From positions 11,160,001 to 11,224,000 of the forward strand of contig OZ024754.1 in NCBI GenBank assembly GCA_964016885.1: 64,000 nt of DNA, written 5' to 3'. Shown here in pieces: positions 447 through 56,180 of the stretch. The notes under the pieces were generated by a model. That model searched no databases. It worked only from the letters and a program-made list of their open reading frames with translations, and was not told the DNA's origin. The first letter of the stretch is position 1. Every line of letters starts with the position of its first letter. The position numbers and the translations under genes are program-made. This DNA is from Eledone cirrhosa. Taxonomy: Eukaryota.

Positions 447-641
447 ATCGCTGGACAGATTTTTACAGGCAAAACCAACTGGCAAAAGATGGGTGGATAA
501 CATCTATGAGCTTGGCTGGTCATGCTTGGGGATCCAGCCGGATCAGTTGAAGATGGTTGCTTCTGACAGGACCCACTGGAAGGACTGTTTGAGGACTGCC
601 TTCACGACCCTCTCAGGAATAAGTGGGCATAGAAGAAGATA
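447..641 (+). mobile_element. RTE-clade LINE 3' end with short (GAA) tail and 11-bp TSD
   Basis: Encodes RTE-like C-terminus (GKRW.DNI...LGIQPDQLKMVASDRTHW); ends AAGTGGGCATAGAAGAAGA; flanked by TTTAAGATATA at 436-446 and 642-652; homologous to 43356-43567 (-). Confidence 0.8.
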
Positions 642-3460: not shown

Positions 3461-4750
3461 GATCATCATCATCATTTTACGTCCGTTCTTCCATGCTAGC
3501 ATGGGTTAGATGGGTTGTCCTGTTGTGGGCAGTGTCTGGTCGGCTGACCATGCCTTGCTCATACAGGAACTGATTTGGCTTGATTTCTACAGCTGAATGC
3601 CCTTCCTAACACCAACCTCATTTACAGTGAGTGCTGGGTGCTTTTTCGTGGCGCCTACACGTCCACTTTACAGTGTGGGCTGGGTGCTTTTTTGCCGTGG
3701 CACCTCCACGACCACCTTGCAGTGGGAGGGTGTGGGGGCATATTGTCTATATGCTTCAGCTTGTACCCATGGGAGGTCGGGTACTCTGTATTACTGCGCG
3801 ACGCCAGAGGTCACGGTCGTGTGTCATCGCCTTTGAGAGGTGTAATTGGGTAAGGTTGGCTTTTATAACCTCATCCCAGGTCATCTTGGGTCTCCCCACT
3901 CCGGTTTCCATCGACTTCTAGTGCTCTGCACCTTTTTATGCAGCTGTCATCCTTCATACGCATCACATGTCCATACCAACACAACCTCCTCTCCTGCACA
4001 CAGCATTTGATTCCTCTTATGCTTAGTCTCTCTCTCTCAATTCATTTATGCTTTGTCGTTCGCGTATATTACTATTTCACATCCATCGGAGCATGCAAGC
4101 TTCGTTTCTCTCTAATCTACGTAAGTCTTCCACCTTCAGCGCCCAAGTCTCACTACCATGTAACATTGCAGTTCGGATACACGCATCATACAGTCTGCCT
4201 TTCATTTTGAGGGAGAAGCCTTTTGCAGCTAGCAGTGGCAGTAGTTCCCTAAACTTCTTCCATCCCGTTCTTACCCTACTTATTGTACTTTCTGAACACC
4301 CACCTCCGCTGCTAATTCGGTCACCTAGGTAGCAGGAGCTGTCTACTGTTTCTACAAAGCCCTCCCAGAGATTGGTGGTACTTGTTTCCTGCTTGCTGTC
4401 TCAGCACAGCTGCTGCATGTGAAGCCTACATTCTTAGTTAAGCTTCCCGAGATCCCGCTACATCTCTTGTGTACCCATTGTTTGCATTTGGGGCAGAGAA
4501 TGGAGTTCCTACCTACACCTTTCCTACATACTGAGCAAGGCCATTTCCCTGAGGGGATCTGGGTTCTGTTTTCTCGTCTAATTACAAGGACCTTAGTCTT
4601 TGTCATGTTGACTTTGAGACCCTTTCTTTCTAGTCCCTGCTTCCAAGTTTGGAATTTCTTCTCTAGTGCTACCATAGATTCATCTATAAGTGCGAGGTCA
4701 TCAGCATACAGGAGTTCCCATGGGCATCCGGTCTTAAACTCCTCCGGACA
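3461..4750 (-). mobile_element. 5'-truncated RTE-clade LINE (RT C-terminal half with PHD-like Cys/His finger, 3'UTR, (GAT)n tail)
   Basis: Minus strand reads PWELLYADDLALI, then GLKVNMTKTKVL, CSVC...CPKCKQWVHKRC...CSSC (ORF 4352-4675), VDSSCYLGD; 3'UTR ends GGACGTAAAATGATGATGATGATC. Confidence 0.88.
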
Positions 4751-4751
4751 G

Positions 4752-5090
4752 TGATATACATATGGAAGATCCTGGAAGGGTTAGCAGCAAACTTCAGCAA
4801 AGGTAGGACCAGCCCACGAACAGGACGTCACTGTGTAGTGCCAAAGGTTCCATCAGTTACATCGAGAATAAAGAGCACATACTGCAATAGCCTGGGGTTC
4901 AAGGAACCCCATCTTTTAAGCTGCCAGAAAATCTGAGAGATCTACATGGTGTACATGTAGATGCTTTCAAGAGACATCTCAACATTCTACTGACCAAGAT
5001 CCCAGATGGACCTGCAGCACAAGGTGAAGCACAAACAAGGGCAGTAGCAACAAACTCCCTTTTGCATCAATGGCTAACCAGAGAAGGCTG
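4752..5090 (+). pseudogene. CR1/L2-group LINE relic, 3' part (continuation of 3062-3460)
   Basis: IYIWKILEGL...GRHCVVPKVP...YCNSLGFK continues the reading interrupted at ~3460. Confidence 0.7.
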
Positions 5091-6786: not shown

Positions 6787-7895
6787 TACCCACTCTACTA
6801 CCCATAGTATCGAGGACTGTGGTACGTTATGGTCCACCGGGTTCCTTACCACACTTCCTTCGTTTAGATAGATAGATATTAAAGACTAGCACTCACAGGA
6901 CAGGGAGAGGGGAGGGGACGAGAGAAAAAAATTGTACCCACAGAGAAAATCTGTTCGTTGTAACAAAATATACAAATTAACTAAACTTGTATTTGAGAAA
7001 ATTATGAAACGAAAATAATTTAAAAAATAGTTATTAATCAGCACACTTTACATATTAGAGTTATTGCTGTATTCTGAGTGGGATGGGATCTTAAAAGATT
7101 ATAAAAGACCCAGTTTTATGAAACCCAAGAACAGAGGCGTTTTGTTAATTCTATAACACACCCAAATCAAAATTCCATGTATGCTAGAAACTATTTGAAA
7201 AATGTTTTTCTTTTCTTTTGAAAGTGACGGAAGTTTAGCTTTATGAAACAACGATAAATCTAATGTCAAGTTGAATTAAAGAATTTACCAGCTATACATA
7301 GATATAATTTGTTGTCGAAGCGGCAAAGGCTCAGCAGTCTGGCCCTAACACTTTACTAAACATACATATTTACACACACAAATACATACAAATATACACA
7401 TACATATATATATATACACATATATATATATATACATATATACACAGAAACACATATATATATACATATATGCACACATATATACATATACATATATGCA
7501 CACATATATACACATAAATATACACATATATACACATATATATACACACATATATATACACACATATATATACACATATATACACACATATATACACATA
7601 TATACATACACATATACACATATATATACACACATATACATACACACATATACACACACATATACACACACATATACACACACATATATACATACATATA
7701 TATATACATACATATATATATACACATATATATACACATATATATACACACATATATACACATATATATACACACATATATACACATATATATACATACA
7801 TATACATACATATATATACATACACATATATATACATACACATATATATACATACACATATATATACATACATACATATACATACATACATATAC

Positions 7896-7940
<45 letters not shown>

Positions 7941-10015
7941 CACATATATACATACATATATATACACATATATATACACATATATATACACATATATATA
8001 CATACATATATATACACATATATACACACATATATACACATATATATACACACATATATACATATACACACATATACACACATATATATACACACACATA
8101 TATATATACACACACATATATATATACACACACATATATATATACACACACATATATATATACACACACATATATATATACACACACATATATATACACA
8201 CACATATATATATACACACACATATATATATACACACACATATATATATACACACACATATATATATACACACATATATATACACACACATATATATACA
8301 CACACATATATATATACACACACATATATATATACACACATATATATATACACACACATATATATATACACACACATATATATATACACACACATATATA
8401 TATACACACACATATATATATACACACACATATATATATACACACATATATATATATACACACATATATATATATATACACACATATATATATATATACA
8501 CACATATATATATATATACACACATATATATATATACACACATATATATATATACACACATATATATATACACACACATATATATATATACACACATATA
8601 TATATATACACACATATATATATATACACACATATATATATATACACACATATATATATATACACATATATATATATATATACATACACATATATATATA
8701 TATACATACACATATATATATATATATACACATATATATATACACATATATATATATACACATATATATATATATACACACATATATATATATATACACA
8801 TATATATATATATATACACATATATATATATACACACATATATATATATACACACATATATATATATACACACATATATATATATACACACATATATATA
8901 TATACACACATATATATATATACACACATATATATATATACACACATATATATATATACACACATATATATATATATATACACACACATATATATATATA
9001 CACATATATATATATATACACATATATATATATATATACACACATATATATATATATACACACATATATATATATATATATACACACATATATATATATA
9101 TACACACATATATATATATATATACACACATATATATATATACACATATATATATACACACACATATATATATATACACACATATATATATATATATACA
9201 CACATATATATATATATATACACACATATATATATATACACATATATATATATATACACATATATATATATATACACATATATATATATATACACATATA
9301 TATATATATACACATATATATATATATACACATATATATATATATACACATATATATATATATACACATATATATATATATATACACATATATATATATA
9401 TATACACATATATATATATATATACACATATATATATATATATACACATATATATATATATATACACATATATATATATATATACACATATATATAAATA
9501 TACACATATATATATATATATACACATATATATATATATATACACATATATATATATATATACACATATATATATATATATACACATATATATATATATA
9601 TACACATATATATAAATATACACATATATATATATACACATATATATATATATACACACATATATATATATATACACATATATATATATACACATATATA
9701 TATATACACATATATATATATACACATATATATATATACACATATATATATATACACATATATATATATATACACATATATATATATATACACATATATA
9801 TATATATACACATATATATATATATATACACATATATATATATATATATACACATATATATATATATATACACATATATATATATATATACACACATATA
9901 TATATATATACACATATATATATATATATACACATATATATATATATATACACATATATATATATATACACATATATATATATATACACACATATATATA
10001 TATATATACACATAT

Positions 10016-10474
10016 GGTGGCTGCCAACTCGTTTTCGAGTACGGCCACTACTTTATATCCATGTAGGAGAACCCCTACTGATGCGCTGAACGAGTGCGAC
10101 TTTTTAGTCCAGCCAGCGACTTGAAAGCTCTGGTACAAACACTACACTTGTGACAATCATTGACACATAGTGCTGGGCCCATGGTACCATGTGACGACAA
10201 ATGCAGAGAGATCTCCAGATATAAAGCAATGCCTGTGCCGTGAAGCTTTTATAGTGAGCAAAGGCACTGCACAAAGCCAGTCCCACTCTCTTAACCAAGA
10301 TGATATTTACCAAAAAGAAGAACAAGTCAACATCATTGGATACCATCAGGGTTGCAGGTGTTATATCAGAGTTTTCCTTCTCCTAGAATTCTGCCTTGAC
10401 AAAGGCTAAGGGGTCATCTCTCCCGGTGATTTTGGATGGCCATTGACTCTCAAGAGCTCCTTTGCCTTTTGACA
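10016..10474 (-). mobile_element. Bipartite non-autonomous RTE-like element, copy 1 (shortest)
   Basis: Same 3' end (CTCGAAAACGAGTTGGCAGCCACC + (AT)n) as copies 2 and 3; carries CTAGGAGAAGGAAAACTCTG and the C2H2 relic. Confidence 0.8.
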
Positions 10475-11723
10475 TACATATATACACATATACATACATA
10501 CATATATACACATATACATATACACACATACATACATACACATACATACATACATATACACACATACACATATATACATATACATACACATATATACATA
10601 TACATACATACACATACATATACATATATATACACACACACACACATACATACATATACATATACATACATACATATATATACATACATACATACATACA
10701 TACATATACATATACATACATACACATATACACACACATACATACATATATATACATATACATACATATATATACATATACATACATATATATATATATA
10801 TACATACATACATACATACATATACATACATACATACACATACATACATACATACATATACATACATATACACATACACATACATATATACATACACACA
10901 CATACATACACACATATACATATACATAAATATATATATACACATACATATACACACACATATATATACATATACATACACATATACATACATATACATA
11001 AATATATATATATATATACACATACATACATATATATATATACACATATACATAAATATATACATATACATACACACACACATACATATATATATACATA
11101 TACATACACACATATATACATACATATACATAAACATATATATATACACATACACACACATACATATATATATATACACACATACATACACACATATATA
11201 CACATATACATACACATACATATATACACACACATACATATATACATATATATATACATACATATATATACATATACACACATATACACATACACACACA
11301 TACATATACATACACATATATATACATACATATACATACATATATATATATATATACACACATACACACATACACACACACACACATATACATATACATA
11401 TACATACATACATATATATACATACACACACACATATATATATACATATACATACACACATACATATACATATACATACACATATATATATACATACACA
11501 TACATACACATATATACATACACATATATATATACATATACATACATATATATATATACACATACACACACACATATATATACACACACATACATATACA
11601 TACACACACATATACATACACATACGCACATATATATATACACATATACATACATACACATATACATACATACACATATATACATACATACATACATACA
11701 CATATACATACATACATACATAT

Positions 11724-12265
11724 GGTGGCTGCCAACTCGTTTTCGAGTACGGCCACTACTTTATAACCATGTAGGAGAACCCCTACCGATACGCTGAACG
11801 AGTGTGACTTTTTAGTCCAGCCAGCAACTTGAAAACTCCGGTACAAACACTACACCTGTGACAACTATTGACACATAGTGCTGGGCCCATGGTACCATGT
11901 AATGACAAGTGCAGAGAGATCTCCAGATACAAAGCAATGCCTGTGCCGTGAAGCTTTTATAGTGAGCAAAGGCACTGCACAAAGCCAGTCCCACTCTCTT
12001 AACCAAGATGATATTTACCAAAAAGAAGAACAAGTCAACATCATTGGATACCATCAGGGTTGCAGGTGTTATATCAGAGTTTTCCTTCTCCTAGAATTCT
12101 GCCTTGACAAAGGCTAAGGGGTCATCTCTCCCGGTGATTTTGGATGGCCATTGACTCTTAAGAGCTCCTTTGCCCTTTGACAGGTTTTGTTTTTAGTCCT
12201 GCAGGATGTCCAAAGTCACCCTCCTCACCAAGAAACCTTAGTGGGGTTGCCAGTTTAGTCGCCAA
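11724..12265 (-). mobile_element. Bipartite non-autonomous RTE-like element, copy 2
   Basis: Homologous to copy 1 with scattered substitutions; extends ~83 bp further 5' to TTGGCGACTAAACTGG. Confidence 0.8.
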
Positions 12266-12416
12266 TATATACATATATATATATATATACACATATATAT
12301 ATATATATATACACATATATATATATATATATACACATATATATATATATATATACACATATATATATATATATATACACATATATATATATATATATAC
12401 ACATATATATATATAT

Positions 12417-12457
<41 letters not shown>

Positions 12458-13502
12458 TATATATACACATATATATATATACACATATATATATATACAC
12501 ATATATATATATACACATATATATATATATACACATATATATATATATACACATATATATATATATACACATATATATATATATATACACATATATATAT
12601 ATATACAGATATATATATATACAGATATATATATATATACACATATATATATATATACACATATATATATATATACACATATATATATATATACACATAT
12701 ATATATATATACACATATATATATATATACACATATATATACACATATATATATATATACACATATATATATATATACACATATATATATATATACACAT
12801 ATATATATATATACACATATATATATATATACACATATATATATATACACATATATATATATACACATATATGTATATATACACATATATATATATATAC
12901 ACATATATATATATATACACATATATATATATATACACATATATATATATATATACACATATATATATATATACACATATATATATATATATATACACAT
13001 ATATATATATATATACACATATATATATATATATACACATATATATATATACACATATATATATATATACACATATATATATATATACACATATATATAT
13101 ATACACATATATATATATACACATATATATATATACACACATATATATATATACACATATATATATATACACATATATATATATACACACATATATATAT
13201 ACACATATATATATATACACACATATATATATATACACACATATATATACACACACATATATATATATACACATACATATATATATATACACATATATAT
13301 ATATATATACACATATATATATATATACACATATATATATATATACACATATATATATATATATATACACATATATATATATATATATACACATATATAT
13401 ATATATATATACACATATATATATATATATATACACATATATATATATATATATACACATATATATATATATATATACACATATATATATATATATATAC
13501 AC

Positions 13503-13535
<33 letters not shown>

Positions 13536-13722
13536 TATATATATATATACACACATATATATATATATATACACATATATATATATATATACACATATAT
13601 ATATATATATATACACATATATATATATATATATACACATATATATATATATATATACACATATATATATATATATATACACATATATATATATATATAC
13701 ACATATATATATATATATACAC

Positions 13723-13766
<44 letters not shown>

Positions 13767-15350
13767 ATATATATATATATATACACATATATATATACAC
13801 ATATATATATATATATATATACACATATATATATACATATATATATACACATATATATATACACATATATATATATATATATACACACATATATATATAT
13901 ATATACACACATATATATATACACACATATATATAGACACATATATATAGACACATATATATAGACACATATATATAGACACATATATATAGACACATAT
14001 ATATAGACACATATATATATAGACACATATATATATAGACACATATATATATAGACACATATATATATAGACACATATATATATACACATATATATATAC
14101 ACATATATATATATACACATATATATATATACACATATATATATATACACATATATATATATACATATACACATATACATATATATATATACACATATAT
14201 ATATACATATATATATATACATATACACATATATATATACACATATATATACACATATATATATATACACATATTTATATATACACATATATATATATAT
14301 ACACATATTTATATATACACATATATATATATACACATATATATATATACACATATATATACACATATTTATATACACATATATATATACACATATATAT
14401 ATATACACACATATATACACACATATATATATACACATATATATATATACACACATATATATATATACACACATATATATATATACACATATATATATAT
14501 ATATATACACATATATATACACATATATATATATATACACATATATATATATATATACACATATATATATATACACACATATATATATACACACATATAT
14601 ATATACACACATATATATATATACACACATATATATATACACACATATATATATACACACATATATATATATACACACATATATATATATACACACATAT
14701 ATATATACACATATATATACACATATATATATACACACATATATATATATACACACACATATATATACACACATATATATACACACATATATATATATAC
14801 ACACATATATATACACACATATATATATACACACACATATATATATACACACACATATATATATACACACACATATATATATACACACACATATATATAT
14901 ACACACACATATATATATACACACACATATATATATACACACACATATATACACACATATATATACACACACATATATATACACACACATATATATACAC
15001 ACACATATATATATACACACACATATATATACACACACATATATATATACACACACATATATATATACACACACATATATATATACACACATATATATAT
15101 ATACACACATATATATATACACACATATATATATACACACATATATATATATACACACATATACATATATATATATACATATACACATATATATATATAC
15201 ACATATTTATATATACACATATATATATATACACATATATATATATACACATATATATATATACACATATATATATATACACATATATATATATACACAT
15301 ATATATATATACACATATATATACACATATATATATATACACATATATAT

Positions 15351-15960
15351 GGTGGCTGCCAACTCGTTTTCGAGTACGGCCACTACTTTATATCCATGTA
15401 GGAGAACCCCTACCAATGCGCTGAACGAGTGTGACTTTTTAGTCCAGCCAGCGACTTGAAAACTCTGGTACAAACACTACACTTGTGACAATTATTGACA
15501 CATAGTGCTGGGCCCATGGTACCATGTGACGACAAGTGCAGAGAGATCTCCAGATATAAAGCAATGCCTGTGCCGTGAAGCTTTTATAGTGAGCAAAGGC
15601 ACTGCACAAAGCCAGTCCCACTCTCTTAACCAAGATGATATTTACCAAAAAGAAGAACAAGTCAACATCATTGGATACCATCAGAGTTGCAGGTGTTATA
15701 TCAGAGTTTTCCTTCTCCTAGAATTCTGCCTTGACAAAGGCTAAGGGGTCATCTCTCCCGGTGATTTTGGATGGCCATTGACTCTTAAGAGCTCCTTTGC
15801 CCTTTGACAGGTTTTGTTTTTAGTCCTGCAGGATGTCCAAAGTCACCCTCCTCACCAAGAAACCTTGGTGGGGTTGCCAGTTTAGTCGCCAACGACCCGA
15901 CCATGAGACAGGTTGTACTGGGATACATGTTACCAGTAGCACCAACTAGTGACCTGACAT
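15351..15960 (-). mobile_element. Bipartite non-autonomous RTE-like element, copy 3 (longest)
   Basis: Minus strand: RTE-like 5'UTR, then [26 protein letters not shown] (~15410-15490), stem-loop CTCG-AAAA-CGAG and an (AT)n tail. Confidence 0.82.
15877..15921 (-). ncRNA. Candidate degenerate HDV-like ribozyme in the RTE-like 5'UTR
   Basis: CCAGT...ACTGG (P2), ACC/GGT (P3), T-GG and CTAA (J4/2) in HDV order; P1 5' strand not found. Confidence 0.35.
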
Positions 15961-18900
15961 AAATATATAAGTATATATATACATACATATATACATACAT
16001 ACATATATATATACATACATATATATATACATACATATATATATATACATACATATATATATATATATATACATACATATATATATACATACATACATAT
16101 ACATATATATACATACATACATATACATATACATACATATATATATACATACATACATATATATACACATATATATACACACGTATATATATATATACAC
16201 ACACATATATATATACACACACATATATATATATACACATATATATATATACACATATATATATACATACACATATATATACACATATATATACACACGT
16301 ATATATATATATACACACACATATATATATACACACACATATATATATATACACATATATATATATACACATATATATATATATACACATATATATATAT
16401 ATACACATATATATATATATACACACACATATATATATATATATACACATATATATATATACACATATATATATATACACATATATATATATACACATAT
16501 ATATATATACACATATATATATATACACATATATATATATACACATATATATATATACACACATATATATATATATACACATATATATATATACACACAT
16601 ATATATATATACACACATATATATATATACACACATATATATATATACACACATATATATATATACACATATATATATATATACACATATATATATATAT
16701 ACACATATATATATATACACATATATATATATACACATATATATATATACACATATATATATATACACATATATATATATACACATATATATATATATAC
16801 ACATATATATATATATACACATATATATATATATACACATATATATATATATACACATATATATATATATACACATATATATATACACACATATATATAT
16901 ACACACATATATATATATACACATATATATATATACACATATATATATATATACACATATATATATACACACATATATATATACACACATATATATACAC
17001 ACACATATATATATACACACACATATATATATACACACATATATATATACACACATATATATATACACACATATATATATACACATATATATACACGCAT
17101 ATATATATACACACATATATATACACACATATATATACACACATATATATACACACATATATATATACACATATATATATATACACATATATATATATAC
17201 ACATATATATATATACACATATATATATATACACATATATATATATACACATATATATACATATATACACATATATATATATATACACATATATATACAT
17301 ATATACACATATATATATATATATACACATATATATATATATATACACATATATATATATATATACACATATATATATATATACACATATATATATATAC
17401 ACATATATATATATACACACATATATATATATACACATATATATATATACACATATATATATATACACATATATATATATACACATATATATATATACAC
17501 ATATATATATATACACATATATATATATACACATATATATATATACACATATATATATATACACATATATATATATACACATATATATATATATACACAT
17601 ATATATATATACACATATATATATATATACACATATATATATATACACATATATATATATACACATATATATATACACATATATATATACACATATATAT
17701 ATACACACATATATATATACACACATATATATATATACACATATATATATATACACATATATATATATACACATATATATATACACATATATATATATAC
17801 ACATATATATATATACACATATATATATATACACATATATATATATACACATATATATATATACACATATATATATATACACATATATATATATACACAT
17901 ATATATATATACACATATATATATATACACATATATATATATACACATATATATATATACACACATATATATATATACACATATATATATATACACATAT
18001 ATATATATACACATATATATATATACACATATATATAGTGTATATATATGTGTATATATATATATGTGTATATATATATATGTGTATATATATATATGTG
18101 TATATATATATGTGTATATATATATGTGTATATATATATGTGTATATATATATGTGTATATATATATATGTGTATATATATATATGTGTATATATATATA
18201 TGTGTATATATATATATGTGTATATATATATATGTGTATATATATATATGTGTATATATATATATGTGTATATATATATATGTGTATATATATATATGTG
18301 TATATATATATATGTGTATATATATATATGTGTATATATATATATGTGTATATATATATATACACATATATATATATACACATATATATATATACACATA
18401 TATATATATACACATATATATATATACACATATATATATATACACATATATATATATACACATATATATATATACACATATATATATATACACATATATA
18501 TATATACACATATATATATATACACATATATATATATACACATATATATATATACACATATATATATATACACATATATATATATACACATATATATATA
18601 TACACATATATATATATACACATATATATATACACATATATATATACACATATATATATACACATATATATATACACATATATATATACACATATATATA
18701 TATACACATATATATATATACACATATATATATATACACATATATATATATACACATATATATATATACACATATATATATATACACATATATATATATA
18801 CACATATATATATATACACATATATATATATACACATATATATATACACATATATATATACACATATATATATACACATATATATACACATATATATATA

Positions 18901-21900
18901 CACACATATATATATATACACACATATATATATATACACATATATATATACACATATATATATACACATATATATATATACACATATATATATACACATA
19001 TATATATATACACATATATATATACACATATATATATACACACATATATATATACACACATATATATATACACACATATATATATACACATATATATATA
19101 TACACATATATATATATACACATATATATATATACACATATATATATATACACATATATATATATACACATATATATATACACATATATATATATACACA
19201 CATATATATACACACACACATATATATACACACATATATATATACACACATATATATATACACACATATACACATATATATATACACATATATATATACA
19301 CATATATATATACATATATATATACACACATATATACACACATATATATATACACACATATATATATACACACATATATATATACACACATATATATACA
19401 CACATATATATACACACATATATACACACATATATATACACACATATATACACACATATATATACACACATATATATACACACATATATATACACACATA
19501 TATATACACATATATATATACACATATATATATACACATATATATATATACACATATATATATACACACATATATATATACACACATATATATATACACA
19601 CATATATATATACACATATATATATACACACATATATATACACACACATATATATACACACACATATATATACACATATATATACACACACATATATATA
19701 CACATATATATATATACACATATATATATATACACATATATATATATACACATATATATATACACATATATATATACACATATATATATACACATATATA
19801 TATACACATATATATATACACATATATATATACACATATATATATACACATATATATATACACATATATATATACACATATATATATACACATATATATA
19901 TACACATATATATATACACATATATATATACACATATATATATACACATATATATATACACATATATATATACACATATATATATACACATATATATATA
20001 TACACATATATATATATACACATATATATATACACATATATATATATACACATATATATATATACACATATATATATATACACATATATATATATACACA
20101 TATATATATATACACATATATATATATACACATATATATATACACATATATATATATACACATATATATATACACATATATATATACACATATATATATA
20201 CACATATATATACACACATATATATACACACATATATATACACACATATATACACACACATATATACACATATATACACATATATACACATATATATACA
20301 CATATATATACACATATATATACACATATATATACACATATATATACACATATATATATACACATATATATATACACATATATATATACACATATATATA
20401 TACACATATATATATACACATATATATATACACATATATATATACACATATATATATATACACATATATATATACACATATATATATATACACATATATA
20501 TATATACACATATATATATACACATATATATATACACATATATATATACACATATATATATATACACATATATATATATACACATATATACATACACATA
20601 TATATATATACACATATATATATATACACATATATATATATACACATATATATACACATATATATATACACATATATATATATACACATATATACACATA
20701 TATATATACACATATATATATATACACATATATATATATACACATATATATACACATATATATATACACATATATATATACACATATATATACACATATA
20801 TATACACATATATATACACATATATATATACACATATATATACACATATATATATACACATATATATATACACATATATATATACACATATATATATACA
20901 CATATATATATACACATATATATATACACATATATATATACACATATATATATACACATATATATATATAGACATATATATATATACACATATATATATA
21001 TACACATATATATATATACACATATATATATATACACATATATATATACACATATATATATATACACATATATATATACACATATATATATATACACATA
21101 TATATATACACATATATATATACACATATATATATACACATATATATATACACATATATATATACACATATATATATACACATATATATATACACATATA
21201 TATATACACATATATATATACACATATATACACACATATATATACACACATATATATACACATATATATATATACACACATATATATACACATATATATA
21301 TATACACATATACACATATATATATATACACACATATATATATACACACATATATATACACACATATATATACACACATATATACACACATATATATATA
21401 CACACATATATATATACACACATATATATATACACACATATATATATACACACATATATACACACATATATATATACACACATATATATATACACACATA
21501 TATATATACACACATATATATATACACACATATATATATACACACATATATATATACACACATATATATATACACACATATATATATACACACATATATA
21601 TATACACACATATATATATACACACATATATATATACACATATATATATACACATATATATACACATATATATATATACACATATATATATATACACATA
21701 TATATATATACACATATATATATACACACACATATATACACACACATATATACACACACATATATATACACACATATATATACACACATATATATACACA
21801 TATATATATACACATATATATATACACACATATATATATACACACATATATATATACACACATATATATATACACACATATATATATACACACATATATA

Positions 21901-23401
21901 TATACACACATATATAGATACACACATATATAGATACACACATATATATATCCACATATATATATACACATATATATATACACATATATATATACACACA
22001 TATATATACACACACATATATACACATATATATACACATATATATATACACATATATATATATACACATATATATATATACACATATATATATACACATA
22101 TATATATATACACATATATATATACACATATATATATATACACATATATATATATACACATATATATATATACACACATATATATATATATACACATATA
22201 TATATATACACATATATATATATACACATATATATATATACACATATATATATATACACATATATATATATACACATATATATATATACACATATATATA
22301 TATACACATATATATATATACACATATATATATATACACATATATATATATACACATATATATATACACATATATATATATACACATATATATATACACA
22401 TATATATATACACATATATATATACACATATATATATACACATATATATATACACATATATATATACACATATATATATACACATATATATATACACATA
22501 TATAAACACATATATATATACACATATATATACACATATATATATACACATATATATAGACATATATATACACATATATATATAGACATATATATATACA
22601 CATATATATATACACATATATATATACACATATATATATATACACTTATACATACATATATATATACACTTATACATACATATATATACACACTTATACA
22701 TACATATATATACACACTTATACATACATATATATATACACTTATACATACATATATATATACACTTATACATACATATATATATACACTTATACATACA
22801 TATATATATATACACTTATACATACATATATATATACACTTATACATACATATATATATACACTTATACATACATATATATATACACTTATACATACATA
22901 TATATATACACTTATACATACATATATATATACACTTATACATACATATATATATATACACTTATACATACATATATATATATACACTTATACATACATA
23001 TATATATACACTTATACATACATATATATATATACACTTATACATACATATATATATACACTTATACATACATATATATATACACTTATACATACATATA
23101 TATATACACTTATACATACATATATATATACACTTATACATACATATATATATACACTTATACATACATATATATATACACTTATACATACATATATATA
23201 TACACTTATACATACATATATATATACACTTATACATACATATATATATACACTTATACATACATATATATATACACTTATACATACATATATATATACA
23301 CTTATACATACATATATATATACACTTATACATACATATATATATACACTTATACATACATATATATATACACTTATACATACATATATATATATACACT
23401 T

Positions 23402-23444
<43 letters not shown>

Positions 23445-36296: not shown

Positions 36297-37342
36297 ATAT
36301 CTGTATTATTGATGGAGTAGTTAGTGTACAACAGGAAGACAGAATATTGAATCAAACATTACCATTGAAATTGATTTAAAACATATTTAGCTGCTAGAAT
36401 AACAAATGTCAAAGTTCACTAAGGTGTGATCGAAATTCAAAAAAATGTCAGAAATGCTCAATTCAATAGCTTGATTAAGTTTATCATTATTTTGTTATCT
36501 GGTCATTTTGATGCACAGTAATTAAAGCATTTACAAAATTATACCATTTGTCATATCCAAATAGTTTTAGATTAGTCAATACCTTGAACAGGATTTTATA
36601 ATCTTGCACCAAACACTAAATATTTTGATTATATTTTATCATAACTATATTTTTCTACAAAGAAGATATGAAATATACTATACATACATTCATACATACA
36701 TCGCTATTTCAGAACACCAATACTAATTCCTAATTTTTGCTGGACTGGCAACTGTTCTGTTTAATCAGCTCTTAAACATCACTGGAATTCTATAAGAATC
36801 CAGCTTCTATAAATCCCGGCAGAAGCGAAGGGATAAGCAATCTTGATAACCGCTAATGAGCGAGAAACAGCCGTCGGTTGCTTCCCTTTGTTTTTTGCCG
36901 AGACTAAGTAAGTGACATAGTCACTACTTTAAAACTCATAGCGAATGGTCTTCAAAGTGTTTTTAAATAAACATACAGTATATTATCAAATATACTATAC
37001 ATACATTCATGTATACATCGCTATTTCAGAGCACTGATACTAATATAACTTTAAATTTTCACATGACACTTTTATCTTTATTGAAAAGACTTAATTGAAG
37101 ATTGAAAGTCTATTTAGACATTAAATTCTTAGTTTTTAGAAGGACCTAAAATCAATTATGTTCTTCCTTGCAAAATATTTCTCAAAGGCTGTAACTATAG
37201 TTACCTACTTTCTTTACTTTCGTGTCGTATTCACTTCTAATTATTACAACAAAATAATTAAATGAATTTACCAGCTCAGGACGACCCATCTAACTCATGC
37301 CAGCATGGAAAAAGGACGTTAAACGATGATGATAATGATTAA

Positions 37343-37469: not shown

Positions 37470-37604
37470 TTATTCCAACTTTCACAATGTCCCTTCTATT
37501 ACCCTCAAACAATGAATGAACCCCAGAGACAGCTCTGTACTTTTTGTCACCCTCTTTCTTTCTCTGGAAGAAATCAACAACGTTTCAATGGGGAGAGAGA
37601 TGGG

Positions 37605-40600
37605 CTTCTTCTTCTTCTTCTTCTTCTTCTTCTTCATCTTCTTCTTCATCTTCTTCTTGGTCTTCTTCTTCTTCTTCTTCTTCTTCTTCATCTTCTTCTT
37701 CTTGGTCTTCTTCTTCTTCTTCTTCTTGGTCTTCTTCTTCATCTTCTTCTTCTTCTTGGTCTTCTTCTTCTTCTTCTTCTTCTTCTTCTTCTTCTTCATC
37801 TTCTTCTTCTTCTTGGTCTTCTTCTTCTTCTTCTTCATCTTCTTCTTCTTGGTCTTCTTCTTCTTCTTCTTCTTCTTCTTCATCTTCTTCTTCTTCTTGG
37901 TCTTCTTCTTCTTCTTCTTCATCTTCTTCTTCTTCTTGGTCTTCTTCTTCTTCTTCTTCTTCATCTTCTTCTTCTTCTTGGTCTTCTTCTTCTTCTTCTT
38001 CATCTTCTTCTTCTTGGTCTTCTTTTTCTTCTTCTTCTTCTTCTTCATCTTCTTCTACTTCTTGGTCTTCTTATTCTTCTTCTTCTTCTTCATCTTCTTC
38101 TTCTTCTTGGTCTTCTTCTTCTTCTTCTTCTTCTTCATCTTCTTCTTCTTCTTGGTCTTCTTCTTCTTCTTCTTCTTCTTCTTCTTCATCTTCTTCTTCT
38201 TCTTCTTCTTCATCTTCTTCTTCTTCTTGGTCTTCTTCTTCATCTTCTTCTTCTTCTTGGTCTTCTTCTTCTTCTTCTTCTTCTTCATCTTCTTCTTCTT
38301 CTTGGTCTTCTTCTTCTTCTTCTTCTTCATCTTCTTCTTCTTCTTGGTCTTCTTCTTCTTCTTCTTCTTCTTCTTCTTCTTCATCTTCTTCTTCTTCTTC
38401 TTCTTCTTCTTCATCTTCTTCTTCTTCTTGGTCTTCTTCTTCTTCTTCTTCTTCATCTTCTTCTTCTTCTTGGTCTTCTTCTTCATCTACTTCTTCATCT
38501 TCTTCTTCTTCTTGGTCTTCTTCTTCTTCTTCTTCTTCTTCTTCATCTTCTTCTTCTTCTTGGTCTTCTTCTTCATCTTCTTCTTCTTCTTGGTCTTCTT
38601 CTTCTTCATCTTCTTCTTCTTCTTGGTCTTCTTCTTCTTCTTCTTCTTCATCTTCTTCTTCTTCTTGGTCTTCTTCTTCTTCTTCTTCTTCTTCATCTTC
38701 TTCTTCTTCTTGGTCTTCTTCTTCTTCTTCTTCTTCTTCATCTTCTTCTTCTTCTTGGTCTTCTTCTTCTTCTTCTTCTTCTTCATCTTCTTCTTCTTCT
38801 TCTTCTTCTTCATCTTCTTCTTCTTCTTGGTCTTCTTCTTCTTCTTCTTCTTCATCTTCTTCTTCTTCTTGGTCTTCTTCTTCTTCTTCTTCTTCTTCTT
38901 CTTCTTCTTCATCTTCTTCTTCTTCTTGGTCTTCTTCTTCTTCTTCTTCTTCATCTTCTTCTTCTTCTTGGTCTTCTTCTTCTTCTTCTTCTTCATCTTC
39001 TTCTTCTTCTTGGTCTTCTTCTTCTTCTTCTTCTTCTTCATCTTCTTCTACTTCTTGGTCTTCTTATTCTTCTTCTTCTTCTTCATCTTCTTCTTCTTCT
39101 TGGTCTTCTTCTTCTTCTTCTTCTTCTTCATCTTCTTCTTCTTCTTGGTCTTCTTCTTCTTCTTCTTCTTCTTCATCTTCTTCTTCTTCTTCTTCTTCAT
39201 CTTCTTCTTCTTCTTGGTCTTCTTCTTCATCTTCTTCTTCTTCTTGGTCTTCTTCTTCTTCTTCTTCTTCTTCATCTTCTTCTTCTTCTTGGTCTTCTTC
39301 TTCTTCTTCTTCTTCATCTTCTTCTTCTTCTTGGTCTTCTTCTTCTTCTTCTTCTTCTTCATCTTCTTCTTCTTCTTGGTCTTCTTCTTCTTCTTCTTCA
39401 TCTTCTTCTTCTTCTTGGTCTTCTTCTTCTTCTTCTTCATCTTCTTCTTCTTCTTGGTCTTCTTCTTCTTCTTGGTCTTCTTCTTCTTCATCTTCTTCTT
39501 CTTCTTGGTCTTCTTCTTCATCTTCTTCTTCTTCTTGGTCTTCTTCTTCTTCTTCTTCTTCTTCATCTTCTTCTTCTTCTTGGTCTTCTTCTTCTTCTTC
39601 TTCTTCATCTTCTTCTTCTTCTTGGTCTTCTTCTTCTTCTTCTTCTTCTTCATCTTCTTCTTCTTCTTGGTCTTCTTCTTCTTCTTCTTCTTCTTCTTCA
39701 TCTTCTTCTTCTTCTTGGTCTTCTTCTTCTTCTTCTTCTTCTTCATCTTCTTCTTCTTCTTGGTCTTCTTCTTCTTCTTCTTCTTCTTCTTCATCTTCTT
39801 CTTCTTCTTGGTCTTCTTCTTCTTCTTCTTCTTCTTCTTCATCTTCTTCTTCTTCTTGGTCTTCTTCTTCTTCTTCTTCTTCTTCATCTTCTTCTTCTTC
39901 TTGGTCTTCTTCTTCTTCTTCTTCTTCTTCATCTTCTTCTTCTTCTTGGTCTTCTTCTTCTTCTTCTTCATCTTCTTCTTCTTCTTGGTCTTCTTCTTCT
40001 TCTTCTTCATCTTCTTCTTCTTCTTGGTCTTCTTCTTCTTCATCTTCTTCTTCTTCTTGGTCTTCTTCTTCATCTTCTTCTTCTTCTTGGTCTTCTTCTT
40101 CATCTTCTTCTTCTTCTTGGTCTTCTTCTTCTTCTTCTTCTTCATCTTCTTCTTCTTCTTGGTCTTCTTCTTCTTCTTCTTCTTCTTCATCTTCTTCTTC
40201 TTCTTGGTCTTCTTCTTCTTCTTCTTCTTCTTCATCTTCTTCTTCTTCTTGGTCTTCTTCTTCTTCTTCTTCTTCTTCATCTTCTTCTTCTTCTTCTTCT
40301 TCATCTTCTTCTTCTTCTTGGTCTTCTTCTTCATCTTCTTCTTCTTCTTGGTCTTCTTCTTCTTCTTCTTCTTCTTCATCTTCTTCTTCTTCTTGGTCTT
40401 CTTCTTCTTCTTCTTCTTCATCTTCTTCTTCTTCTTGGTCTTCTTCTTCTTCTTCTTCTTCTTCATCTTCTTCTTCTTCTTGGTCTTCTTCTTCTTCTTC
40501 TTCATCTTCTTCTTCTTCTTGGTCTTCTTCTTCTTCTTCTTCATCTTCTTCTTCTTCTTGGTCTTCTTCTTCTTCTTGGTCTTCTTCTTCTTCATCTTCT

Positions 40601-43355
40601 TCTTCTTCTTGGTCTTCTTCTTCATCTTCTTCTTCTTCTTGGTCTTCTTCTTCTTCTTCTTCTTCTTCATCTTCTTCTTCTTCTTGGTCTTCTTCTTCTT
40701 CTTCTTCTTCATCTTCTTCTTCTTCTTGGTCTTCTTCTTCTTCTTCTTCATCTTCTTCTTCTTCTTGGTCTTCTTCTTCTTCTTCTTCTTCTTCATCTTC
40801 TTCTTCTTCTTGGTCTTCTTCTTCTTCTTCTTCTTCTTCATCTTCTTCTTCTTCTTGGTCTTCTTCTTCTTCTTCTTCATCTTCTTCTTCTTCTTGGTCT
40901 TCTTCTTCTTCTTCTTCTTCTTCATCTTCTTCTTCTTCTTGGTCTTCTTCTTCTTCTTCTTCTTCTTCATCTTCTTCTTCTTCTTGGTCTTCTTCTTCTT
41001 CTTCTTCATCTTCTTCTTCTTCTTGGTCTTCTTCTTCTTCTTCTTCATCTTCTTCTTCTTCTTGGTCTTCTTCTTCTTCTTCTTCTTCTTCATCTTCTTC
41101 TTCTTCTTGGTCTTCTTCTTCTTCTTCTTCTTCTTCATCTTCTTCTTCTTCTTGGTCTTCTTCTTCTTCTTCTTCATCTTCTTCTTCTTCTTGGTCTTCT
41201 TCTTCTTCTTCTTCATCTTCTTCTTCTTCTTGGTCTTCTTCTTCTTCTTGGTCTTCTTCTTCTTCATCTTCTTCTTCTTCTTGGTCTTCTTCTTCTTCTT
41301 CTTCATCTTCTTCTTCTTCTTGGTCTTCTTATTCTTCTTCTTCTTCATCTTCTTCTTCTTCTTGGTCTTCTTCTTCTTCTTCTTCATCTTCTTCTTCTTC
41401 TTGGTCTTCTTCTTCTTCTTCTTCTTCTTCATCTTCTTCTTCTTCTTGGTCTTCTTCTTTATCTTCTTCTTCTTGGTCTTCTTCTTCTTCTTCTTCTTCT
41501 TCATCTTCTTCTTCTTCTTGGTCTTCTTCTTCTTCTTCTTCTTCATCTTCTTCTTCTTCTTCTTCTTGGTCTTCTTCTTCTTCTTCATCTTCTTCTTCAT
41601 CTTCTTCTTGGTCTTCTTCTTCTTCTTCTTCTTCATCTTCTTCTTCTTCTTCTTCTTCTTGGTCTTCTTCTTCTTCTTCATCTTCTTCTTCTTCTTCTTC
41701 TTGGTCTTCTTCTTCTTCTTCATCTTCTTCTTCATCTTCTTCTTGGTCTTCTTCTTCTTCTTCTTCTTCTTCATCTTCTTCTTCTTCTTGGTCTTCTTCT
41801 TCTTCTTCTTCTTCATCTTCTTCTTCTTCTTGGTCTTCTTCTTCTTCTTCTTCTTCTTCATCTTCTTCTACTTCTTGGTCTTCTTATTCTTCTTCTTCTT
41901 CTTCATCTTCTTCTTCTTCTTGGTCTTCTTCTTCTTCTTCTTCTTCATCTTCTTCTTCTTCTTGGTCTTCTTCTTCTTCTTCTTCTTCTTCATCTTCTTC
42001 TTCTTCTTCTTCTTCATCTTCTTCTTCTTCTTGGTCTTCTTCTTCATCTTCTTCTTCTTCTTGGTCTTCTTCTTCTTCTTCTTCTTCTTCATCTTCTTCT
42101 TCTTCTTGGTCTTCTTCTTCTTCTTCTTCTTCATCTTCTTCTTCTTCTTGGTCTTCTTCTTCTTCTTCTTCTTCTTCATCTTCTTCTTCTTCTTGGTCTT
42201 CTTCTTCTTCTTCTTCATCTTCTTCTTCTTCTTGGTCTTCTTCTTCTTCTTCTTCTTCATCTTCTTCTTCTTCTTGGTCTTCTTCTTCTTCTTGGTCTTC
42301 TTCTTCTTCATCTTCTTCTTCTTCTTGGTCTTCTTCTTCTTCTTCTTCATCTTCTTCTTCTTCTTGGTCTTCTTATTCTTCTTCTTCTTCATCTTCTTCT
42401 TCTTCTTGGTCTTCTTCTTCTTCTTCTTCATCTTCTTCTTCTTCTTGGTCTTCTTCTTCTTCTTCTTCTTCTTCATCTTCTTCTTCTTCTTGGTCTTCTT
42501 CTTTATCTTCTTCTTCTTGGTCTTCTTCTTCTTCTTCTTCTTCTTCATCTTCTTCTTCTTCTTGGTCTTCTTCTTCTTCTTCTTCTTCATCTTCTTCTTC
42601 TTCTTCTTCTTGGTCTTCTTCTTCTTCTTCATCTTCTTCTTCATCTTCTTCTTGGTCTTCTTCTTCTTCTTCTTCTTCATCTTCTTCTTCTTCTTCTTGG
42701 TCTTCTTCTTCTTCTTCATCTTCTTCTTCTTCTTCTTCTTGGTCTTCTTCTTCTTCTTCATCTTCTTCTTCATCTTCTTCTTGGTCTTCTTCTTCTTCTT
42801 CTTCTTCTTCATCTTCTTCTTCTTCTTGGTCTTCTTCTTCTTCTTCTTCTTCATCTTCTTCTTCTTCTTGGTCTTCTTCTTCTTCTTCATCTTCTTCTTC
42901 ATCTTCTTCTTGGTCTTCTTCTTCTTCTTCTTCTTCTTGGTCTTCTTCTTCTTCTTCTTCTTCATCTTCTTCTTCTTCTTGGTCTTCTTCTTCTTCATCT
43001 TCTTCTTCTTCTTCTTCTTGGTCTTCTTCTTCTTCTTCATCTTCTTCTTCATCTTCTTCTTGGTCTTCTTCTTCTTCTTCTTCTTCTTCATCTTCTTCTT
43101 CTTCTTGGTCTTCTTCTTCTTCTTCATCTTCTTCTTCTTCTTGGTCTTCTTCTTCTTCTTCATCTTCTTCTTCATCTTCTTCTTGGTCTTCTTCTTCTTC
43201 TTCTTCTTCTTGGTCTTCTTCTTCTTCTTCTTCATCTTCTTCTTCTTCTTGGTCTTCTTCTTCTTCTTCATCTTCTTCTTCTTCTTCTTCTTGGTCTTCT
43301 TCTTCTTCTTCATCTTCTTCTTCATCTTCTTCTTGGTCTTCTTCTTCTTCTTCTT
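37605..43355 (-). repeat. 5.75-kb (GAA)n-based satellite with GAT and GACCAA interruptions; expanded RTE 3' tail
   Basis: (TTC)n punctuated by ATC and TTGGTC on +; directly abuts TGCCCACTTATTCC, the LINE 3' end. Confidence 0.92.
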
Positions 43356-43567
43356 TGCCCACTTATTCCTGAGAGGATCGTGGGGGCAGAGTCCTCAAAC
43401 ACTCCCTCCAGCGGGTCCTGCCAAAAGCAACCGTCTCCAACTGATCTGGCTGGATCCCTAAGCGAGACCAGCCAAGCTCATGGATGTTATCCAGCCATCT
43501 TACTCTGGGTCTACCCCTGAGTTTCCTGCCTGTTGGTTTTGCCCGTAAAATCTGTCCACCACGATTA
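43356..43567 (-). mobile_element. RTE LINE 3' end (family of 447-641)
   Basis: Minus strand encodes GRKLRGRPRVRWLDNIHELGWSRLGIQPDQLETVAFGRTRW. Confidence 0.85.
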
Positions 43568-43613
43568 AATTATCCAAGACACACTGTGTGTCAGGTGAGT
43601 GCTCCTTTCACAC

Positions 43614-54099: not shown

Positions 54100-55721
54100 A
54101 AGATGATATTGTGAAATGATACTGGGAGATGATACTGGGAGATGATATTGTGAGATGATACTGTGAGATGATATTGGGAGATGATACTGTGAGATGATAT
54201 TGTGAGATGATATTGGGAGATGATACTGTGAGATGATACTGTGAGATGATATTGTGAGATGGTACTGTGAGATGATATTGGGAGATGATATTGGGAGATG
54301 ATACTGTGAGATGATACTGTGAGATGATATTGTGAGATGATACTGTGAGATGATACTGTGAGATGATATTGTGAGATGATACTGTGAGATGATATTGGGA
54401 GATGATATTATGAGATGATACTGTGAGATGATATTGTGAGATGATATTGGGAGATGGTACTGTGAGATGATATTGGGAGATGATATGAGATGATATTGGG
54501 AGATGATACTGTGACATGATATTGTGAGATGATACTGGGAGATGATATTATGAGATGATATTGGGAGATGGTACTGTGAGATGATATTGGGAGATGGTAC
54601 TGTGAGATGATATTGGGAGATGATACTGTGAGATGATATTATGAGATGATATTGGGAGATGATATTGTGAGATGATACTGGGAGATGATACTGTGAGATG
54701 ATATTATGAGATGATATTGGGAGATGATACTGTGAGATGATATTGTGAGATGATACTGTGAGATGATATTGTGAGATGATATTGTGAGATGATACTGTGA
54801 GATGATATTGGAAGATGATATTGGGAGATGATACTGTGAGATGATATTATGAGATAATATTGGGAGATGATATTGTGAGATGATACTGTGAGATGATAGT
54901 GGGAGATGATACTGTGAGATGATATTTTGAGATGATATTGTGAGATGATACTGTGAGATGATATTGGGAGATGATACTGTGATGATATTGTGATGATATT
55001 GTGATATAATACTGGGAGATGATATTGGGAGATGATACTGTGAGATGATATTGGGAGATGATACTATGAGATGATATTGGGAGATGGTACTGTGATGATA
55101 TTGTGATGATATTGTGATATAATACTGGGAGATGATATTGGGAGATGATACTATGAGATGATATTGGGAGATGGTACTGTGAAATGATATTGGGAGATGA
55201 TATTGGGAGATGGTACTGGGAGATGATACTGTGAGGTGATATTGTGAGATGATATAGTGAAATGATATTGTGAGATGAAATTGGGAGATGATACTGGGAG
55301 TTGATATTGGGATATGATACTGTGAGATGATATTGTGAAATAATATTGGGAGATGGTACTTTGAGATGGTACTTTGAGATGATATTGGGTGATGATATTG
55401 TGAGATAATATTGTGAAATAATACTGGGAGATGATATTGTGAGATGGTACTGTGAGATGATATTGGGAGATGGTACCGTGAGATGATATTGGGAGATGGT
55501 ACTGGGAGATGATACTGTGAGATGATACTGGGAGATGGTACTGTGAGATGATACTGGGAGATGATATTGTGAAATGATATCGTGAGATGATATTGGAGAT
55601 GGTATTGTGAGATGATATTAGAGATGGTATTGTGAGTTGATATTGTGAGATGATACTGTGAGATGATATTGGGAGATGATACTGTGAGATGATACTGGGA
55701 GATGATATTGGAGATGATACT
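54100..55721. repeat. 13-bp minisatellite (GAGATGATA[C/T]TG[T/G])
   Basis: ~1.6 kb tandem array. Confidence 0.95.
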
Positions 55722-56180
55722 AAAGCTGTTAATTATAGAAATTGTTCTGTAATTCTGAAGTCTTAAGATGTCTTTCTTGGGAATGGGTATCGTTAATGAT
55801 TGGATCCACTCCTTCCGCCATCATTTGTCATATCTATTGCCAGCTGATAGTGCCTTGATAAGTTTTGGTCCTCCATGTTTCAGGAGTTCTGATGGAATTT
55901 TCCATCTTTGAGTATGCACACTGCTTCTTTGATTTGACTTACCTCTAGAGAATTGAAATATCTCAAGTTCTCTATTCTTGTTGGTGGAATTAACCAGGAT
56001 GCTAGTGTCATGTCTGAGCTTGTGGTTATAAACGTCTTTGCAATACCCAGACTATCTTCTGAATACAGCAGTCTTATCTGTGAGGTGTGGGCCTATTTTG
56101 TCCTCAATAACAGTGATGATGTGTTGCTTTATTTTTGTTAGTATTTTAAGGGTTTCATAAGCAGCCTTGCCATTGCCCCC
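55722..56180 (-). pseudogene. RTE-type RT N-terminal relic
   Basis: IKEAVCILKDGK...IPSELLKHGG...KEWIQSLTIPIPKK...QNYRTIS. Confidence 0.75.

What the first reader, a model, noticed from the sequence alone, without database searches (positions are those of the whole stretch)
37605..43567. 5.75-kb GAA satellite is the hyper-expanded 3' tail of an RTE LINE, with an unexpanded sister copy in the same window
Seen: on the minus strand the LINE 3' end ...GGAATAAGTGGGCA runs directly into (GAA)n with periodic GAT and GACCAA interruptions for 5.75 kb. The homologous copy at 447-641 ends ...GGAATAAGTGGGCATAGAAGAAGA, about 10 bp of tail before its TSD. Inference: a several-hundred-fold expansion seeded by the retrotransposon tail. 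Known: long GAA/TTC tracts form triplex H-DNA and impede transcription and replication; interruptions tend to stabilise them.
Basis: partly seen in the sequence, partly recalled or inferred. Interest (0 to 1): 0.7.

Follow-up and report, generated by a model that had tools for sequence, protein, structure and literature searches.

The report
LINE tail grown into 5.75-kb repeat
A broken jumping-gene copy, whose relatives mostly end in about 10 bases of GAA repeat, here ends in 5,752 bases of interrupted GAA repeat that likely grew on the spot after insertion, an extreme case of a known and likely harmless process.

Summary
Confirmed in the assembly, and a known kind. A 202-bp 3' end of an RTE-type (Rex3-like) LINE (43558-43357, minus strand) runs into 5,752 bp of GAA with GAT and GACCAA interruptions. 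Its two flanks are halves of one interspersed repeat; in 26 of 26 other copies they are adjacent, with no LINE and no GAA array. The compound unit occurs only here (103 of 103 genome matches). Of at least 5,303 family copies, 40 unselected ones have a median tail of 10 bp. Thirteen others found reach 465-1,344 bp, all interrupted; this is the longest found. The array is a single-locus ~40-bp compound minisatellite with internal block duplications up to 579 bp, not a pure GAA tract (longest pure run 12 units), so the Friedreich-type triplex reading is weak. The 'sister' is just another family member. Length is not verified by long reads and no orthologue was seen. LINE-tail seeding of microsatellites is published, and this scan noted larger LINE-tail-seeded arrays (48-bp unit, up to 84 kb; unchecked) elsewhere in this genome.

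The parts
43357..43558 (-). 5'-truncated 3' end of an RTE-type (Rex3-like) LINE: last ~60 codons of the ORF, stop TAA at 43365-43363, 6-nt 3' UTR
   Evidence: tblastn to aa 988-1046 of the 1,047-aa endonuclease+RT protein P0003, 56% identity, E 4e-12; 87% DNA identity to the 3' end of a 2.3-kb family copy, L223; 5,687 candidates in the genome
37605..43356 (-). Expanded tail, 5,752 bp: 137 compound units GAC CAA (GAA)~4 GAT (GAA)3-12, mostly 39-45 bp, with nested block duplications
   Evidence: unit found nowhere else in the assembly
39067..40749 (-). Exact 579-bp internal duplication (40749-40171 = 39645-39067, offset 1,104)
   Evidence: longest exact repeat in 200 unit-shuffles was 321 bp
41197..42696 (-). 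Exact 456-bp internal duplication (42696-42241 = 41652-41197, offset 1,044), sharing rare marker triplets
43555..43600 (-). 5' half of the host interspersed repeat (SINE-like; label inferred); 4 bases (43558-43555) fit both host and LINE
   Evidence: aligns to 26 paralogous copies up to the insertion point
37531..37606 (-). 3' half of the host repeat, resuming where the 5' half stops; 2 bases (37606-37605) fit both tail and host
447..641 (+). Second, independent copy of the same LINE family: 24-bp internal deletion, 13-nt tail (629-641), flanked by an 11-bp TSD (436-446, 642-652)

Best explanation
A 202-bp 3' fragment of an RTE-type LINE sits inside another interspersed repeat whose other copies are empty at this spot, and its short GAA tail likely grew in place, after insertion, into a 5.75-kb single-locus compound repeat with no likely function. 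Steps: (1) Shown: the family ends in short (GAA)n; the pre-insertion site, read from paralogues, has no GAA tract. (2) Inferred: insertion by target-primed reverse transcription with 5' truncation, short microhomologies at both ends and no TSD. (3) Inferred from the family series: replication slippage lengthened the tail, as in the 102 copies with at least 20 pure units. (4) Shown as structure, inferred as history: point changes made a ~40-bp unit, which was multiplied and then copied in blocks of 0.3-1.1 kb (unequal exchange or template switching), while slippage went on in the longer GAA run of each unit.
For: Empty site: 5' and 3' flanks lie -7 to +12 bases apart in 26 of 26 host paralogues (overlap of one base in 6), with at most 3 GAA in a row in any of them. 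No GAA on the 5' side of the LINE. Unit unique: 103 genome matches of a 31-mer, all 103 in this array. Tail series: median 10 bp, max 127 in 40 unselected copies; 63-689 bp in 30 of the 102 copies picked for at least 20 pure units; 13 of 20 candidates fetched have 465-1,344 bp, each with its own interruption letters. Internal history: exact duplications of 579 and 456 bp against a shuffle maximum of 321 bp; unit-level self-alignment score 70 against a shuffle maximum of 21. The short run is 4 units in 105 of 127 cases while the long run varies 3-12 (mode 8 in 38 of 121), as length-dependent slippage would give (copies are not independent). The copy is 7-11% diverged from its nearest relatives, so time was available.
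Against: No TSD encloses LINE plus array, so the classic proof of in-place growth is missing here (exact TSDs of 8 bp or more were seen in only 6 of 40 unselected copies). The empty sites are paralogues, not the orthologue. No reads or contigs confirmed either junction or the length. The array is 4.3 times longer than the next tail found, and long exact internal duplications are also what a mis-assembly could leave. The census needs an exact 12-nt anchor and misses diverged copies, so 'longest' holds only for those found.
Confidence: 0.85

Rival explanations
1. The array is real but its length is inflated by the assembler, which duplicated 0.5-1-kb blocks of a shorter or heterozygous repeat.
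For: Exact 579- and 456-bp internal duplications; outlier length against 13 other long tails of at most 1,344 bp; no read support obtained.
Against: No N and no 1-2-base indel in 1,916 triplets. Duplicated blocks differ by whole GAA units and are nested at several offsets (1,044, 1,104, 1,713, 2,817), which is not one doubled read. Other multi-kb simple arrays lie in the same window (16 kb) and near other loci (2.6-5.1 kb). Even with both exact blocks removed, over 4.5 kb remain.
Confidence: 0.08
2. The LINE inserted at the edge of a GAA array that had already formed in this copy of the host repeat, its GAA tail priming on the array.
For: No TSD at this copy. Five of 8 long GAA-tract loci sampled on contig C1 have no match to this LINE upstream, so such tracts also arise otherwise. 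LINE insertion into microsatellites is described (PMC3812793, PMC2887409, passages).
Against: The host has no proto-repeat at the site: at most 3 GAA anywhere in 26 paralogues, and the flanks rejoin with -7 to +12 bases. All GAA lies 3' of the LINE and in its tail orientation.
Confidence: 0.03
3. The long tail was written at insertion by repeated slippage of the reverse transcriptase on its GAA template.
For: RT slippage is proposed to lengthen RTE tails (PMC2887409, passages).
Against: Rare point changes are shared between blocks 1-3.8 kb apart (for example a TAA..GTA marker at 41886, 39066 and 38073), which needs DNA-level copying after mutation. Fresh-looking tails are about 10 bp. The LINE part is 7-11% diverged while array blocks are identical over hundreds of bases.
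Confidence: 0.02
4. The array has a role, such as triplex-mediated damping of transcription of a host gene or a replication barrier, as in GAA expansion diseases.
For: 92.5% purine strand; 109 of 293 purine runs are 20 nt or more; longest purine mirror arm 29 nt, so small local triplexes are possible.
Against: Pyrimidine interruptions break the strand into 293 purine runs, median 16 nt; longest pure run 12 GAA. Interrupted repeats are reported to form less H-DNA and to be more stable (PMC11667243, passages). No host-gene Pfam domain in 76 frames of 65 aa or more (short exons would be missed). About 43% of the window is tandem arrays of 500 bp or more.
Confidence: 0.02

Closest known systems
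Microsatellite seeding by RTE-clade LINE 3' ends in Lepidoptera (PMC2887409, passages) and by snake CR1 and Bov-B LINEs (PMC3157835, passages)
   Same: Abundant 5'-truncated 3' fragments each deliver a short simple-repeat tail at a new site; tails can be perfect, compound or imperfect; GAA is among the listed units.
   Different: The passages give tails of 2 to >35 units; here about 1,900 triplets, reorganised into a ~40-bp unit with kb-scale block duplications.
Rex3 of teleost fish (PMC6274825, passages)
   Same: Stop codon a few bases before a tail that starts with GAA; endonuclease, RT and C-terminal domain; no poly(A).
   Different: Rex3 has 3 nt (GCG), then (GAA)2 and a tetranucleotide repeat as its signature; this family has 6 nt and then (GAA)n only.
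Alu-derived GAA repeats, including the FXN intron-1 expansion in Friedreich ataxia (PMC3812793 and PMC11667243, passages)
   Same: A retroposon-born GAA tract that expands in place far beyond its relatives.
   Different: FXN is a pure GAA tract that arose by mutation of an A-rich Alu stretch and lies in a transcribed intron. Here the GAA is the LINE's native tail, is heavily interrupted, and no host gene was found.
RTE-2_OV of Octopus vulgaris (PMC9115989, passages)
   Same: [quoted passage not shown]
   Different: Described with a 3' UTR of about 600 nt; identity with this family was not tested.

Membership tests
RTE-clade LINE | One long ORF with AP-endonuclease followed by reverse transcriptase | tested here: met
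   Family copy L223 aligns collinearly to aa 198-1047 of P0003 (1,047 aa; Pfam PF14529, PF03372, PF00078), 50-66% identity; RVT_1 at E 1.8e-6 on a stop-free piece, other pieces weak and all below cut-off. The window copy keeps only the last ~60 codons.
RTE-clade LINE | Very short 3' UTR ending in a microsatellite rather than poly(A) | tested here: met
   TAA + 6 nt + (GAA)n; 5,303 exact matches of the 17-nt end; tails
RTE-clade LINE | Variable 5' truncation | tested here: met
   41-620 bp in 40 unselected copies, measured against references of at most 670 bp; 2.3 kb shared by L222 and L223
RTE-clade LINE | RT groups with named RTE references in a tree | not tested
   None of the 52 homologues carried a clade name; no named reference sequences were on hand
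RTE-clade LINE | Target-site duplication | tested here: inconclusive
   11 bp at the 447-641 copy; 0-1 base at the long copy; 6 of 40 with 8 bp or more. Fugu Expander had TSDs of 10 bp or more in 93 of 345 copies (PMC6007223, table passage).
Rex3 proper | Tail GCG (GAA)2 followed by a tetranucleotide repeat | tested here: not met
   Tails are (GAA)n with no tetranucleotide repeat in the copies read against PMC6274825; Rex3-like only
Retroposon-seeded microsatellite | Repeat lies at the element's 3' end and is absent from the pre-insertion site | tested here: met
   26 of 26 paralogous host copies are empty; the orthologue was not available
Satellite DNA family | Same monomer at several loci or in very long arrays | tested here: not met
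   All 103 matches of the 31-mer and all 16 of the 70-mer lie in this array
Friedreich-type GAA expansion | Long uninterrupted (GAA)n | tested here: not met
   Longest pure run 12 units
Friedreich-type GAA expansion | Lies in a transcribed intron and lowers expression | not testable with these tools
   No annotation or RNA reads; Pfam scan of 76 frames found only a LINE RT piece

The most novel reading that the evidence does not exclude
In this genome, LINE GAA tails pass a few hundred bases only after interruptions turn them into a locus-specific compound unit that then grows by block duplication, mostly on the smaller chromosomes. Interruptions would then license kilobase growth rather than stop it, and the 5,000+ copies sharing one anchor form a natural series for testing this. 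Basis: all 14 tails of 465 bp or more are interrupted (longest pure runs 10-58 units), the longest pure tail seen was 60 units, and 2 of 14 lie on contigs C1-C4 against 68 of 100 for pure tails of 20 units or more (Fisher p 0.0002; p 0.053 against 18 of 39 best-match copies). Against: any long tract gathers interruptions with age, and diverged-anchor long tails do occur on C1.
Probability: 0.3. Interest if true: 0.45.

Novelty: new member of a known kind. Interest (0 to 1): 0.27.

Why it matters
It is a clean worked example of the route from LINE tail to microsatellite to minisatellite, with the empty site readable from paralogues and the growth history readable from marker triplets. It also shows that this LINE family is one real source of long GAA tracts in the genome (3 of 8 sampled loci). 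It does not reveal a new mechanism or a function. Its practical value is as the extreme point of a large anchored series for studying how GAA repeats grow, a question otherwise studied mostly at a few human disease loci.

Tried and rejected
Read support: the run search gave contigs of the likely same species (X14 has an exact 213-base piece at 37100-37312) and weaker holders. Laying 4 runs on each junction gave only pieces from other repeat copies, with no cover at 37594-37640 or 43563-43610; holes there prove nothing, so this is no evidence either way. No run from another organism gave an orthologous contig. TSD search around the long copy found nothing near the junctions. Coding role of the array: the three plus-strand frames are open (poly-L, -F, -S) and the minus frames have 4-146 stops; rejected as a trivial property of (CTT)n. 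Ranking the array among all multi-kb GAA tracts in the genome could not be done; only a 400-base span could be searched (9,014 match pairs, 262 of them from the window and the 20 loci L182-L201). Seven of the 20 long-tail candidates were dropped because their tails were under 200 bp. Literature searches for an octopus GAA LINE tail or a compound expansion from a retrotransposon tail listed no report of this locus or of tails this long; only listings were seen for most hits, no supplements were read, and subscription papers are not searched.

Full report
Observation. The array is in the assembly as described: 5,752 bp on the minus strand (43356 to 37605), with no N in the window. In the GAA frame it has 1,484 GAA, 146 GAT and 137 GAC CAA pairs, plus 12 rare triplets, and never leaves frame in 1,916 triplets; the longest pure run is 12 GAA. 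It starts directly after a LINE 3' end. A homologous copy at 447-641 has a 13-nt tail and an 11-bp target-site duplication.

The element. The window lies on contig C14 of a 3.0-Gb genome. It is likely an octopus; this rests on my recall of its SINEs, the genome size and earlier scan notes, and was not tested. The 202-bp fragment encodes the last ~60 residues of a LINE protein: 56% identity to aa 988-1046 of P0003, a 1,047-aa endonuclease plus reverse transcriptase. A longer family copy (L223) is 87% identical to the fragment at its 3' end and aligns collinearly to aa 198-1047 of P0003. The stop codon is followed by 6 nt and then (GAA)n. This resembles fish Rex3 but lacks its tetranucleotide signature (PMC6274825, passages). 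RTE membership rests on architecture and tail; no tree with named references was built. The 17-nt end has 5,303 exact matches, so the second copy in the window is simply another family member. It is on the other strand, has a 24-bp deletion and is less alike than many distant copies.

Was the array there first? A substitute turned up. A search with the 3' flank found other loci in which the sequence upstream matched the window's 5' flank. Both flanks are halves of one interspersed repeat (3,289 candidates). In 26 of 26 paralogues examined (25 loci, one of them the query locus, plus L119), the two flanks lie -7 to +12 bases apart, with no LINE and at most 3 GAA in a row. The insert is therefore LINE plus array, placed with 4 bases of microhomology at the 5' junction, 2 at the 3' junction and at most one duplicated base. 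This also moves the LINE start from 43567 to about 43558. A 31-nt piece of the compound unit has 103 matches in the genome and all 103 lie in this array, so there is no donor locus in the assembly and no satellite family.

How unusual is the length? In the first 40 loci listed on C1 (unselected for tail), the median tail is 10 bp and the maximum 127. The commonest end variant has 102 copies with at least 20 pure units; 30 of them measured 63-689 bp. A gapped search for tails still GAA-rich 400 bases on gave 21 loci including this one. Of the 20 others fetched, 13 have tails of 465-1,344 bp and 7 under 200 bp. All 14 long tails are interrupted, each with its own letters. This array is about 575 times the median and 4.3 times the next longest found. 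The census needs an exact 12-nt anchor: among the first 8 long GAA-tract loci on C1, 3 were tails of diverged copies that it missed and 5 had no match to this LINE upstream. Multi-kb simple arrays are common here: about 43% of the window is arrays of 500 bp or more, including one of 16 kb, and arrays of 2.6-5.1 kb lie near several fetched loci.

How it grew. The array consists of 137 units of the form GAC CAA (GAA)~4 GAT (GAA)3-12, of which 91 are 39-45 bp. The short run is 4 in 105 of 127 cases, whereas the long run varies, as length-dependent slippage predicts; the copies are not independent. Above this level lie block duplications: exact repeats of 579 bp (offset 1,104) and 456 bp (offset 1,044) against at most 321 bp in 200 unit-shuffles, and a unit-level self-alignment score of 70 against at most 21 in 50 shuffles. 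Rare markers recur 1-3.8 kb apart. The likely order is insertion, slippage, point changes, amplification of the compound unit, then block copying by unequal exchange or template switching. The structure is shown; the order and the molecular route are inferred.

Artefact check. Not settled. Public runs were contigs or RAD reads, and neither junction was covered by a copy-specific piece. The absence of any small indel and the nesting of imperfect duplications at several offsets argue for a real array; long exact blocks and outlier length leave about 8% for inflation.

Function. None is indicated. A review states that interrupted purine repeats form less H-DNA and are more stable (PMC11667243, passages). 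Here the longest purine run is 38 nt and the longest purine mirror arm 29 nt, so only small local triplexes are plausible. A Pfam scan of 76 non-repetitive frames of 65 aa or more found only a LINE RT piece; short exons would be missed, so an intronic position is open.

What is known. RTE 3' fragments as progenitors of simple repeats, GAA included: PMC2887409 (passages). Seeding by snake LINEs: PMC3157835 (passages). Retroposon-born GAA repeats, including FXN: PMC3812793 (passages). A microsatellite at the ORF end of an octopus RTE: PMC9115989 (passages). Repeat-rich octopus genome: PMC13282606 (first of three parts read). RTE insertion signatures: PMC6007223 (passages). Searches listed no description of tails of this length in this family; supplements were not read. 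Earlier notes of this scan describe 48-bp arrays of up to 68-84 kb grown from LINE 3' UTRs in the same genome (not checked here); none was near this locus or matched a GAA-tail word search.

Verdict. Real in the assembly, seeded by the LINE tail, grown in place into a single-locus compound repeat: an extreme member of a known kind. Interest 0.27.

Noticed in passing
window 7392-23444: A 16-kb AT/AC-derived tandem array (TRF periods 2, 16 and 18), nearly three times longer than the GAA array.
   Followed up: no
window 4355-4780 (-): One frame holds a piece of RVT_1 followed directly by a PHD finger (E 2.6e-5 and 1.1e-7), likely a decayed LINE of another family.
   Followed up: no
window 54101-55820 (-): A 1.6-kb 13-bp array abuts a frame that looks like a LINE RT fragment (resemblance recalled, not tested).
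   Followed up: no
L198 8794-9758 and L200 9363-9930: Tandem arrays made from the LINE's own body: a 40-bp unit spanning the 3' end (24 copies) and a 48-bp unit from further inside (12 copies). L006 and L024 also carry short tandem copies of internal segments.
   Followed up: partly
G000 contigs C1-C4 versus smaller contigs: Tails of 465 bp or more: 2 of 14 on C1-C4, against 68 of 100 for pure tails of 20 units or more (p 0.0002) and 18 of 39 best-match copies (p 0.053); weakened by the diverged long-tail copies on C1.
   Followed up: partly
L127-L151 (host repeat): The host is a conserved ~110-bp module followed by a variable (GA)n stretch and then the common SINE body; probably a composite SINE subfamily, not classified here.
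   Followed up: partly
L084 (C1:10.66 Mb) and L103 (C1:30.39 Mb): Two copies with the same 70-bp element, tail and flanks, probably a segmental duplication; L093 and L095 also share a 3' flank. The 40-copy sample is therefore slightly non-independent.
   Followed up: no
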